The position numbers were made by a program, and so were the translations under genes. The notes beneath the pieces were generated by a model that was not told the origin of the DNA, ran no database searches, and saw only the letters and a list, made by a program, of their open reading frames with translations. From a virus (taxonomy: Duplodnaviria > Heunggongvirae > Uroviricota > Caudoviricetes), in the IMG/VR virus record IMGVR_UViG_3300029641_000003: DNA of 64,000 bases; one strand, 5' to 3'. Shown piece after piece: positions 18,045 to 19,000 of the stretch. Every line of letters starts with the position of its first letter. Position 1 is the stretch's first letter.

Positions 18045-18428
18045 CTACCAGCGGGATAAACGAACAACATGCTTAACTTTTGCCTCCCACTTCCCTTTAT
18101 GTTTGTTGATCACCGCCTGGGCCATCTTCAGACTGGCTTCAAAATCGGCTTTTCGACCACTATTACCCACCAGCAACGCTCCGTCTATTTCAGGTAAGCA
18201 TAAGTAATCCTGCTCGACGGTAAGCGGCATTGATGATGTAACCTGGCAGGCTTTCCATCTGAAGCGTATGCGCACACTCCTGACTGACATCACGACATAA
18301 CCTGATATTGTGCTCTTGTGTCCGGCGTCTGTGCGTGTAGCCTTGCATGATGTTATCTTGCAGGTGATAATGTCCCAACCAATGTGCATCGCATCCTCAA
18401 TGCGTAATTTAGTAGCCTCGTACATCAA
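18045..18428 (-). CDS. hypothetical protein
   Basis: 127-aa ORF; start overlaps stop of upstream gene. Confidence 0.4.
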   Translation of the reverse strand: MMYEATKLRIEDAMHIGWDIITCKITSCKATRTDAGHKSTISGYVVMSVRSVRIRFRWKACQVTSSMPLTVEQDYLCLPEIDGALLVGNSGRKADFEASLKMAQAVINKHKGKWEAKVKHVVRLSRW

Positions 18429-19000
18429 AAAACCTCCCAGTCAGTAGCGATAATATCAACACCAGTTGCAAACCAGTCTGTCTGTGCCTGTAAATCCCCA
18501 TTCATCATTACCAGGCGAGGCATAACCATCACATCACAACCTTCAACAATATCGAATGCCTCTTCCGGCAGGAATTCGACGAGCTTTTCTTTGCTGCCAA
18601 CACTGCCACGGAGCATCGATATATAGCTCCCTTTAGGCCATGATGTTCGCCGGGCATCAAGCCCCTTCATCATCCAGTAAAAGGCCGATGAGAACGGGAT
18701 GTTCTTTTTGGCGATGAGCACGTTATTCGCTTCTGTGTACTTCAGGAACTTAATTAACCTTACCATTGACTCGGATAACGCAATGTACGGCTCATGATTG
18801 ATTGCTGACACGCTTACGCCGTGCAGTCCAACACTTACCACAGTCATATCACCGTTCTGTGCGGTTTCGATGTTGACGCCTTTACGAACTAACGCTGCAT
18901 AAAGCTCCTCGCGCTTTTGCGTCCAGCATTCTCGTCGCCCTATAAAGTCACTCAAAACGAGATCATCTTCTGAATACGCGTTATCGTTCGCCGTTAACAT
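18425..19000 (-). CDS. two-domain protein with C-terminal DUF2829/Tad2-like domain
   Basis: 191 aa; C-terminal ARRTSWPKGSYI ... TDWFATGVDIIATDWEVF resembles the 10121..10783 C-terminus. Confidence 0.55.
   Translation of the reverse strand: MLTANDNAYSEDDLVLSDFIGRRECWTQKREELYAALVRKGVNIETAQNGDMTVVSVGLHGVSVSAINHEPYIALSESMVRLIKFLKYTEANNVLIAKKNIPFSSAFYWMMKGLDARRTSWPKGSYISMLRGSVGSKEKLVEFLPEEAFDIVEGCDVMVMPRLVMMNGDLQAQTDWFATGVDIIATDWEVF

What the first reader, a model, noticed from the sequence alone, without database searches (positions are those of the whole stretch)
18425..19000. Second DUF2829-like fusion protein, downstream of the tRNA cluster
C-terminus ARRTSWPKGSYI ... TDWFATGVDIIATDWEVF is paralogous to the 10121..10783 C-terminal domain, with a different N-terminal domain. 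Three such proteins in one window suggests an expanded family, possibly each targeting a different signal.
Basis: partly seen in the sequence, partly recalled or inferred. Interest (0 to 1): 0.75.

Follow-up and report, generated by a model that had tools for sequence, protein, structure and literature searches.

The report
Divergent two-domain Tad2-like phage protein
This gene of a D6/P1-type phage-plasmid encodes a rare, divergent relative of the phage "sponge" protein Tad2, which soaks up bacterial immune signals. It carries an extra N-terminal domain and an altered binding loop, so it is probably an anti-defence protein whose target signal is unknown.

Summary
The ORF is real: 18425..19000 on the minus strand, 191 aa, with a strong ribosome-binding site and dN/dS 0.09 against phage D6. 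The window is a D6-like P1-family phage-plasmid, and this gene is D6 orf6.

The 220-aa protein at 10121..10783 carries the same domain with a different N-terminus. The two are only 24% identical, so they are old paralogs.

The claim of three such proteins fails. Pfam and HMM scans of all ORFs and all six frames find two.

The protein belongs to a very rare subfamily: 18 clusters among 1.84 billion representatives. It always lies just upstream of lpa in P1/D6-like elements.

Both ligand-stacking tryptophans and the aspartate are kept. The phosphate-contacting asparagine of characterised Tad2 is absent (GWNG becomes SWPKG).

The N-terminal domain has an acidic dsRBM-like fold with only a weak resemblance to the Acb4 sponge.

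Most likely it is an oligomeric sponge for a nucleotide immune signal with altered specificity. This is untested. I rate it a variant of a known kind, of moderate interest.

The parts
18425..19000 (-). CDS of 191 aa, including the TGA stop at 18425-18427. It is the two-domain Tad2-like protein, equivalent to phage D6 orf6/gp006. PGAP names it 'MW1434 family type I TA system toxin' in near-identical plasmids.
   Evidence: ORF list. 91.6% identical to D6 gp006. phrog_7362 matched full length at E 5e-131. dN/dS against D6 is 0.088. PGAP name.
18713..19000 (-). N-terminal domain, residues 1-96. Three helices, a three-stranded antiparallel sheet and a long helix (H11-20, H30-39, E43-49, E52-59, E62-68, H71-91), giving a dsRBM-like fold. 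It is acidic and has no Pfam family.
18431..18694 (-). C-terminal Tad2-like domain (PF11195 match, residues 103-190). Pocket-equivalent residues are W121, P122 (in place of Asn), W176, T179 and D182. The family signature residues G113, R118, D187 and W188 are present.
19006..19011 (-). Shine-Dalgarno sequence AAGGAG, 5 nt upstream of the ATG at 19000.
   Evidence: Read directly from the sequence. The block is conserved in D6 and the Shigella plasmid.
18045..18425 (-). Downstream partner ORF of 126 aa counted from the ATG at 18425. The TGATG overlap shares one base with the stop codon of the Tad2-like gene, and GGGAGG lies 7 nt upstream. Family phrog_7004, function unknown. It is probably translationally coupled.
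   Evidence: Sequence. PHROG E 9e-73. Homologs in the same position in D6 (70%), the Shigella plasmid (56%), L008 (37%) and weakly L006 (25%). Absent in L005, L011 and Pantoea pEuc3. No Pfam, PDB or PADLOC hit.
17545..17937 (-). lpa, the late promoter-activating protein. It is the conserved downstream neighbour and is followed by pacA, pacB and c1.
   Evidence: PF25716 at E 3.7e-50. The same order is seen in nine related elements.
19455..19530 (-). tRNA-Met(CAT), the last gene of the upstream tRNA cluster (Asn, Thr, Ser, Met).
   Evidence: ARAGORN. Rfam.
10121..10783 (-). The only other Tad2-like protein in the window (220 aa). It has a canonical Tad2 domain at residues 136-219 and an unrelated N-terminal domain.
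   Evidence: PF11195 at E 1.6e-22. PDB: ModTad2 5.8e-20, HgmTad2 3.8e-10, SPO1 Tad2 6.5e-9.

Best explanation
The gene encodes a soluble two-domain anti-defence protein of a D6/P1-type phage-plasmid.

Its C-terminal half is a true but divergent Tad2-fold domain. By analogy with solved Tad2 proteins, it should oligomerise. Characterised Tad2s are homotetramers built from V-shaped dimers. Ligand pockets would form at protomer interfaces, where the two invariant tryptophans (W121, W176) and D182 clamp a nucleotide-derived immune signal. The protein would then titrate that signal away from the effector of a signalling defence system such as Thoeris, CBASS or Pycsar.

The phosphate-contacting Asn of characterised Tad2s is missing throughout the subfamily, so the preferred ligand is probably not bound in the canonical 3'cADPR mode. 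It may be a different signal.

The acidic dsRBM-like N-terminal domain most likely acts as an extra oligomerisation or scaffold module rather than as an RNA binder.

What is shown: gene integrity, purifying selection, domain homology, fold, residue conservation, rarity and synteny. What is inferred: oligomerisation, ligand binding, the anti-defence role and the timing of expression.
For: Family membership. PF11195 scores above its gathering cutoff. All 17 subfamily members match it. The subfamily profile hits every solved Tad2 at E 1.6e-9 to 3e-7.

Pocket residues. The two Trp that sandwich gcADPR in SPO1 Tad2 (W25/W73) and HgmTad2 (W21/W87) are invariant here, 17 of 17. The Asp equivalent to D79/D93 is present in 13 of 17, including the window protein (residue roles from bioRxiv 10.1101/2023.05.01.538930 and 10.1101/2023.11.15.567273).

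Selection. dN/dS against D6 is 0.088 overall, 0.116 for the N domain and 0.057 for the C domain. Full-length homologs exist down to about 21% identity.

Solubility. There is no hydrophobic segment: the maximum Kyte-Doolittle value over 19 residues is 1.20.

Context. The host element already carries anti-defence functions: a second, canonical Tad2 gene and DarA/DarB. Tad2 was reported by automated screening in 93% of D6-like and 56% of P1-like phage-plasmids (bioRxiv 10.1101/2025.09.12.675607).

Family plasticity. Tad2 homologs are experimentally known to have re-tuned specificity for 3'cADPR, His-ADPR, N7-cADPR, cyclic dinucleotides and cCMP/cUMP (bioRxiv 10.1101/2025.08.24.671296).

Architecture. 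N-terminally extended Tad2-like proteins of 150-270 aa are common among phage structure predictions.
Against: There is no experimental datum for this protein or any member of its subfamily.

The Asn after the first Trp (SPO1 N26, HgmTad2 N22) contacts the ligand phosphates, and it was part of a W21A/N22A double mutant that lost binding. Here it is Pro, and it is Asn in only 1 of 17 subfamily members. T78/T92 is replaced by Val.

The residues of the second, cyclic-dinucleotide pocket of HgmTad2 (R31, S47, F70, N85) are not conserved either (my mapping on the alignment).

The window protein alone hits solved Tad2 only weakly (SptTad2 E 0.54).

Unlike typical anti-defence cargo, the gene holds one fixed position next to lpa across very divergent P1-like elements. 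It diverges roughly in step with its neighbours. This could point to a role in the element's own biology.

The oligomeric state could not be modelled. An N-terminal fusion next to helix alpha1, which is the tetramer interface in SPO1 Tad2, might change the assembly.

No promoter or timing information was obtained.
Confidence: 0.5

Rival explanations
1. The Tad2-fold domain binds a small molecule, but the protein serves the phage-plasmid's own regulation and not counter-defence. It might sense a host nucleotide such as c-di-GMP or an ADPR derivative, and so influence the lysis/lysogeny decision or late development. This would fit its fixed position next to the late activator gene lpa.
For: The gene lies directly upstream of lpa-pacA-pacB-c1 in nine related elements, at 20-92% protein identity. 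Its divergence roughly tracks that of Lpa and PacA: 53% against 75% and 71% in the Shigella plasmid, and 46% against 52% and 55% in L005. This looks like vertical co-inheritance. HgmTad2 co-purifies with host c-di-GMP (bioRxiv 10.1101/2023.11.15.567273), so Tad2 folds can bind housekeeping signals. The canonical phosphate-contact Asn is lost.
Against: There is no DNA-binding or enzymatic output domain. The N domain is an acidic dsRBM-like fold with no recognisable effector function. P1 itself manages without the gene and has pdcA/pdcB in that slot. No member of the Tad2 family is known to have a regulatory role.
Confidence: 0.2
2. It is a dual sponge. The N-terminal dsRBM-like domain is a degenerate Acb4-type module that forms a second ligand pocket or a new assembly, so one polypeptide neutralises two classes of immune signal.
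Confidence: 0.1
3. It is a type I toxin-antitoxin toxin, as the PGAP product name 'MW1434 family type I TA system toxin' says.
For: PGAP gives this name to the identical or near-identical protein in E. coli, E. marmotae, Shigella and Pantoea plasmids. S. aureus MW1434 (81 aa) was listed among predicted type I toxins in a bioinformatic survey (PMC6266405).
Against: That source is a prediction table with no experiment on MW1434. Type I toxins are small hydrophobic membrane peptides. This protein is 191 aa, soluble and acidic, with no transmembrane-like segment (maximum Kyte-Doolittle 1.20, GRAVY -0.03). The family has since been shown structurally and biochemically to be a signal sponge. NCBIfam release 20 has no model matching the protein. 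No antisense RNA family is detected at the locus.
Confidence: 0.02
4. It is an anti-CRISPR of the AcrIIA7 type.
For: The subfamily profile matches AcrIIA7/HgmTad2 chains 8kbi and 9kzr at about 2e-9 to 6e-9. DUF2829 proteins were first reported as type II-A anti-CRISPRs.
Against: Li et al. could not reproduce any Cas9 inhibition by HgmTad2 or its homologs, in vitro or in vivo (bioRxiv 10.1101/2023.11.15.567273). From my own knowledge, Escherichia, Shigella and Salmonella carry type I CRISPR-Cas and not type II-A.
Confidence: 0.03
5. The N-terminal dsRBM-like domain binds double-stranded or structured RNA, so the protein acts on RNA. Possible targets are the neighbouring tRNAs or an RNA-based defence.
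Confidence: 0.05

Closest known systems
Tad2 (Thoeris anti-defence 2) sponge family, Pfam PF11195/ex-DUF2829. Solved members: SPO1 Tad2 (8SME/8SMF), HgmTad2/AcrIIA7 (8KBI-8KBM), SptTad2 (8WJD), ModTad2 (8V3E/9EIB).
   Same: The C-terminal 90 residues have the same fold: helix alpha1 followed by an antiparallel sheet. They keep the family signature G..xR..W ... W.....D[IL][LM]A.DW, including both ligand-stacking tryptophans and the pocket aspartate. The gene is encoded by a temperate phage element.
   Different: The protein is twice the size, with an extra 96-residue N-terminal domain. The phosphate-contacting Asn (GWNG) is replaced (SWPKG) and is absent in 16 of 17 subfamily members. T78/T92 is replaced by Val. 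The cyclic-dinucleotide pocket residues of HgmTad2 are not conserved. Sequence similarity to any solved member is only about 20-24%. The subfamily is very rare (18 clusters at 50% identity) and confined to P1/D6-like phage-plasmids, at a fixed locus beside lpa. Ligand and activity are unknown.
The window's own canonical Tad2 paralog, the 220-aa protein at 10121..10783 (homologs in P1-like phage SJ46 and others)
   Same: It has a Tad2-like domain at the C-terminus of a two-domain protein, in the same element and on the same strand.
   Different: It keeps GWNG and WVPSxGD and is close to ModTad2 (E 6e-20). Its N-terminal domain is unrelated (phrog_11049/phrog_872). The two proteins share 24% identity.
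Acb4 (SPO1 gp1.3, PF13876, PDB 9E4W), a cyclic-dinucleotide sponge with a dsRBM-like protomer
   Different: It does not match PF13876. It lacks the extended beta3-alpha4 loop that forms the Acb4 pocket. hhalign probability is only 44%.
P1 pdcA/pdcB, the genes in the equivalent slot upstream of lpa in phage P1
   Same: The genomic position is the same, between accessory genes and the C1-controlled lpa gene. They are non-essential genes of unknown function.
   Different: There is no homology. PdcB is a 347-aa protein annotated as an HNH endonuclease.

Membership tests
Pfam PF11195 (Tad2-like / DUF2829 domain) | HMM score above the curated gathering threshold | tested here: met
   40.2 bits against a cutoff of 25, E 5.2e-10, residues 103-190 covering profile positions 3-72 of 73. 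All 17 subfamily members match.
Pfam PF11195 (Tad2-like / DUF2829 domain) | [quoted passage not shown] | tested here: met
Functional Tad2 sponges (gcADPR/His-ADPR sequestration) | Two tryptophans that sandwich the ligand (SPO1 W25/W73; HgmTad2 W21/W87) | tested here: met
   W121 and W176 align to them and are invariant in 17 of 17 subfamily sequences.
Functional Tad2 sponges (gcADPR/His-ADPR sequestration) | Asn immediately after the first Trp, contacting the ligand phosphates (SPO1 N26; HgmTad2 N22, followed by G23) | tested here: not met
   Position 122 is Pro. The column holds Asn in only 1 of 17 subfamily members (P 8, G 3, others 5), and one residue is deleted relative to GWNGK.
Functional Tad2 sponges (gcADPR/His-ADPR sequestration) | Pocket Asp (SPO1 D79; HgmTad2 D93) and the neighbouring Ser/Thr (S76/T78; S90/T92) | tested here: inconclusive
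   D182 is present (13 of 17 in the subfamily). S76 is conservatively replaced by T179. T78 is replaced by V181.
Functional Tad2 sponges (gcADPR/His-ADPR sequestration) | Homotetramer whose protomer interfaces form the pockets | not testable with these tools
   Only monomer prediction was available. It needs AF-Multimer/AF3 or SEC-MALS.
Functional Tad2 sponges (gcADPR/His-ADPR sequestration) | Binds and sequesters a TIR- or cyclase-derived signal and relieves defence in vivo | not testable with these tools
   It needs a biochemical or genetic assay.
Acb4 sponge family (PF13876) | Match to the PF13876 HMM | tested here: not met
   No PF13876 hit for any of 13 N-domain sequences at E up to 5. 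SPO1 Acb4 itself scores 35.5 bits. No shared PHROG.
Acb4 sponge family (PF13876) | dsRBM-like protomer: helical N-terminus, three antiparallel strands, long C-terminal helix | tested here: met
Acb4 sponge family (PF13876) | Extended beta3-alpha4 loop carrying the ligand contacts (V56, Y57, F62, N63, I66, T70) | tested here: not met
   hhalign places gaps of 9 and 2 residues across this loop. The K81 equivalent is variable in the subfamily.
Type I toxin-antitoxin toxin (PGAP name 'MW1434 family') | Small hydrophobic, membrane-active peptide | tested here: not met
   191 aa, GRAVY -0.03, maximum 19-residue Kyte-Doolittle hydropathy 1.20, pI about 5.
Type I toxin-antitoxin toxin (PGAP name 'MW1434 family') | Cognate antisense RNA antitoxin at the locus | tested here: inconclusive
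   No Rfam family lies in 17.4-19.4 kb. No convincing antisense promoter was found. Rfam holds only described families.
Canonical dsRNA-binding domain (dsRBD) | alpha-beta-beta-beta-alpha fold | tested here: met
Canonical dsRNA-binding domain (dsRBD) | Basic RNA-binding surface (KKxAK-type motif at the start of the last helix) | tested here: not met
   The helix 71-91 reads PYIALSESMVRLIKFLKYTEA. The domain has pI 5.0 and net charge -4. No dsrm Pfam hit.

The most novel reading that the evidence does not exclude
This would be a new kind of composite sponge, conserved as a fixed gene beside lpa in the P1/D6 phage-plasmid supergroup. The Tad2 pocket has lost the canonical phosphate-binding Asn. 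On this reading it has been re-tuned to an immune or host signal not yet known to be sponged. The dsRBM/Acb4-like N-terminal domain would supply a second pocket or a new oligomeric assembly. One protein would then neutralise more than one signalling defence, or would couple signal sensing to the element's late-gene switch.
Probability: 0.12. Interest if true: 0.7.

Novelty: new variant of a known kind. Interest (0 to 1): 0.4.

Why it matters
Tad2-family sponges are the most versatile known viral inhibitors of nucleotide-signalling immunity. Each newly characterised clade has so far either revealed a new ligand (His-ADPR was discovered by using ModTad2 as bait) or a new pocket.

This clade differs from the characterised ones in three ways. 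It lacks a canonical contact residue. It carries an extra domain. It is fixed in a clinically widespread group of E. coli, Shigella and Salmonella phage-plasmids, alongside a second, canonical Tad2.

If it binds a different molecule, it could serve as a ready-made bait to identify that signal. It would also explain how these plasmid-prophages persist in hosts with several signalling defences.

On a practical level, the current RefSeq product name ('type I TA system toxin') is very probably wrong and is propagating.

Tried and rejected
- **Single-sequence AF2 model.** It was unusable (pLDDT 44) and was replaced by a 17-sequence alignment model.
- **Word-indexed homolog search.** It gave only relatives at 87% identity or more. 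The exhaustive HMMER search was needed.
- **P0012.** This 4941-aa protein with 16 matching stretches is a plant TAXi-repeat gene model, so the match is spurious.
- **Third paralog.** None was found by phmmer, a custom HMM on six frames, or a Pfam scan of 73 ORFs.
- **NCBIfam and PADLOC.** Neither has a model for the protein.
- **N-domain profile against PDB.** The top hits were designed ankyrin repeats, an artefact of the short motif LL.kG.dV summed over repeats. 1r7l scored only E 0.94.
- **Acb4 link.** The search for homologous proteins returned only close SPO1-like Acb4s, so the profile-profile test lacks power (probability 44%). I do not claim homology.
- **Regulation.**
  - The P1 C1 operator consensus has no match in the window at up to 3 mismatches.
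  - The exact 13-mer TTAATTAATACGA occurs twice, 178 nt apart, upstream of the gene. It is not part of an enriched motif.
  - A P1 late-promoter-like box, AAGTTACGA, lies about 60 nt upstream, but it has no acceptable -10 at either annotated P1 spacing.
  - The sigma-70 scan found nothing upstream of the gene.
  - So timing of expression is unresolved.
- **Leader RNA structure.** The z-score is -1.2, not significant.

Full report
**What the window is.** The region around the finding is 99.7% identical to plasmid pRHBSTW-00605_3 of Escherichia marmotae. It is about 86% identical to Escherichia phage D6, a P1-family plasmid prophage. On the minus strand the local gene order is tRNA-Asn, tRNA-Thr, tRNA-Ser, tRNA-Met, the ORF in question, a 126/127-aa ORF, lpa, pacA and pacB. 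c1 follows on the opposite strand.

**The observation.** ORF 18425..19000 (minus strand, 191 aa) is intact. It starts at the first possible start codon after the upstream stop. AAGGAG lies 5 nt upstream of its ATG. It corresponds to D6 orf6, annotated as hypothetical, at 91.6% identity. RefSeq plasmids call it 'MW1434 family type I TA system toxin'.
- Residues 103-190 match Pfam PF11195 at 40.2 bits against a cutoff of 25. That family was formerly DUF2829 and is now named 'Thoeris anti-defense 2-like'.
- The ORF at 10121..10783 (220 aa) matches the same model more strongly, at E 1.6e-22.
- The two proteins align directly only at 24% identity (E 0.005). Their N-terminal halves fall in different PHROGs.
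Exactly two of 73 window ORFs hit PF11195.
- An unfiltered search of all six reading frames, using an HMM built from four solved Tad2 domains plus both window copies, finds only these two.

**The gene is real and under selection.**
- Against D6, dN/dS is 0.088 overall, 0.116 for the N-terminal half and 0.057 for the C-terminal half.
- Full-length homologs without frameshifts exist at 53% identity (Shigella dysenteriae plasmid) and 46% (a Logan contig). They continue down to about 21-26% identity.

**A rare, lineage-bound subfamily.**
- An exhaustive HMMER scan of 1.84 billion cluster representatives returned only 18 hits at E up to 1e-3. One of them, a plant repeat protein, is spurious.
- In PLSDB the protein occurs in 127 plasmids. 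Of these, 125 are non-mobilizable, most of those listed are about 90 kb, and almost all are from Escherichia, Salmonella, Shigella or Pantoea.
- Every homolog whose context could be read lies in a P1/D6-like element directly upstream of lpa, followed by pacA, pacB and c1. This covers the window, D6, the Shigella plasmid, Pantoea pEuc3 and contigs L005, L006, L008, L011 and L012.
- Phage P1 itself has the unrelated pdcA/pdcB genes in that slot.
- The gene diverges somewhat faster than its neighbours. Against the Shigella plasmid it is 53% identical, compared with 75%, 71% and 90% for Lpa, PacA and PacB.

**Structure.**
- Single-sequence AF2 failed (pLDDT 44). With a 17-sequence alignment of the subfamily, the model reached pLDDT 88.9.
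- It has two domains joined by a linker at about residues 92-102.
- A sequence profile of the subfamily hits all of them at E 1.6e-9 to 3e-7.
- Homology of the C domain to the Tad2 family is therefore secure.

**The pocket.** In SPO1 Tad2, gcADPR is held by W25 and W73 from two protomers, with polar contacts from N26 and D79 and further contacts from T78, S76, H71 and D67 (bioRxiv 10.1101/2023.05.01.538930). In HgmTad2 the equivalents are W21, N22, G23, W87, S90, T92 and D93. The W21A/N22A and S90A/T92A/D93A mutants lose binding (bioRxiv 10.1101/2023.11.15.567273). I mapped these residues onto the alignments.
- W121 and W176 are invariant in 17 of 17 subfamily members.
- D182 is present in 13 of 17.
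- S76 becomes T179 and T78 becomes V181.
- The Asn is replaced by Pro, with a one-residue deletion (GWNGK becomes SWPKG). That column is Asn in only 1 of 17 members.
- The residues of HgmTad2's separate cyclic-dinucleotide pocket (R31, S47, F70, N85) are not conserved either. The insertion does share the 'LP..F' motif with the long-insertion clade.
- The 220-aa paralog, in contrast, keeps GWNG and WVPSxGD. It is closest to ModTad2 (E 6e-20), which sequesters His-ADPR and cUMP/cCMP.

**The N-terminal domain.**
- Residues 1-96 form helices, a three-stranded antiparallel sheet and a long helix.
- No Pfam family matches at E up to 5.
- Acb4's describers noted the same dsRBM neighbours for Acb4.
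- I tested the Acb4 link directly. hhalign of the N-domain alignment against an Acb4 alignment gives E 2.3e-4 over 60 columns, but only 44% probability.
- PF13876 does not match. The two share no PHROG.
- The alignment deletes the extended beta3-alpha4 loop that carries Acb4's ligand contacts.
- The domain is acidic (pI 5.0), which argues against dsRNA binding.
- I therefore treat it as a dsRBM-like module of unknown role, most simply an oligomerisation or scaffold domain. Homology to Acb4 is possible but not shown.

**Neighbour.**
- The stop codon of the gene overlaps the ATG of a 126-aa ORF (TGATG), and GGGAGG lies 7 nt upstream of that ATG.
- This partner (phrog_7004) is conserved at the same position in D6, the Shigella plasmid and L008, and weakly in L006. 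It is absent from L005, L011 and pEuc3.
- It has no detectable similarity to anything characterised.

**Interpretation.** The best-supported reading is an oligomeric small-molecule sponge of the Tad2 family with altered specificity, encoded next to a second, canonical Tad2 in the same element.
- The family's known plasticity makes a changed ligand plausible. Different members act on 3'cADPR, His-ADPR, N7-cADPR, cyclic dinucleotides or cCMP/cUMP.
- A recent survey already reported 'Tad2' by automated screening in 93% of D6-like phage-plasmids. The presence of the family in these elements is therefore not new.
- What is new is this divergent two-domain paralog, its missing Asn, its rarity and its fixed position beside lpa.
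- That fixed, apparently vertically inherited position is the main reason to keep a non-defence, regulatory or sensing role as a serious rival.
- The RefSeq 'type I toxin' name rests on a prediction table for an 81-aa S. aureus prophage protein. It is contradicted by the protein's size, solubility and fold.
- The anti-CRISPR label of AcrIIA7 could not be reproduced by others.

**Limits.**
- No multimer model, ligand docking or expression data could be obtained.
- Promoter searches were uninformative.

**Verdict.** The protein is a divergent architectural variant of a known anti-defence family, and its function is inferred and not shown. Interest is moderate.

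Noticed in passing
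window 10121..10783 (-): The 220-aa paralog has a canonical Tad2 domain that is closest to ModTad2, the His-ADPR and cUMP/cCMP sponge (E 6e-20). Residues 57-112 of its unrelated N-terminal domain match positions 31-86 of phrog_9467. SPO1 Acb4 matches positions 73-142 of the same PHROG. So this N-terminal module seems to be fused to a Tad2 domain here and to an Acb4-like domain in other phages, as if it were a shared adaptor for different sponge domains.
   Followed up: partly
window 18045..18425 (-): A 126-aa ORF (phrog_7004) is translationally coupled to the Tad2-like gene through a TGATG overlap. It is conserved in D6-like elements but has no similarity to anything known. In the 99.7%-identical E. 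marmotae plasmid, PGAP annotates only a 61-aa ORF in this interval.
   Followed up: partly
window 19001..19454: The 454-bp non-coding stretch between tRNA-Met and the gene is 88% identical to D6. In places it is better conserved in the Shigella plasmid than the adjacent coding sequence. Its tRNA-proximal 184 nt are shared with P1, P7 and RCS47 at 78-84%. It contains an exact 13-mer, TTAATTAATACGA, twice, 178 nt apart. There is no significant RNA structure (z -1.2) and no Rfam hit.
   Followed up: partly
RefSeq plasmid annotations (e.g. WP_016262431.1 in NZ_CP056699.1; L003, L004): The product name 'MW1434 family type I TA system toxin' is applied to this soluble 191-aa Tad2-like protein. The name traces back to a prediction table (PMC6266405) and is very probably a misannotation that is propagating.
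   Followed up: yes
L006 413..931 and 6001..6621 (Logan SRR16702770 contig, 89.7 kb): A distant P1-like element also carries two Tad2-like genes, of 172 aa and 206 aa. The longer one is again followed by an overlapping ORF of about 138 aa and lies near lpa. Two Tad2-like paralogs per element is therefore a recurring arrangement.
   Followed up: no
window 33871..34077 (-): Rfam finds the C4 antisense RNA (RF01695, 69.6 bits) and its a1/b1 target element (RF03163, 55.2 bits). This is the P1/P7-type immI immunity region, next to icd and a Rha-family gene.
   Followed up: no
window 20152..20238 (-): ARAGORN calls an 87-nt tRNA-Ser(UGA) within the tRNA cluster, but the Rfam tRNA model did not report it at gathering score. 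The D6 record notes the same gene as having a UGA anticodon with the amino acid not called by tRNAscan-SE.
   Followed up: no
window 25193..32041 (-) and DarA_N hits: There is a 2282-aa SNF2-related (DarB-like) ORF, and two ORFs with DarA_N domains. The element therefore carries the Dar anti-restriction system alongside the two Tad2-like genes.
   Followed up: no
P0012 (hit): A 4941-aa plant gene model made of TAXi xylanase-inhibitor repeats scored E 3e-25 against the query through 16 weak repeated stretches. It is an example of a repeat-summed false positive in the exhaustive search.
   Followed up: yes
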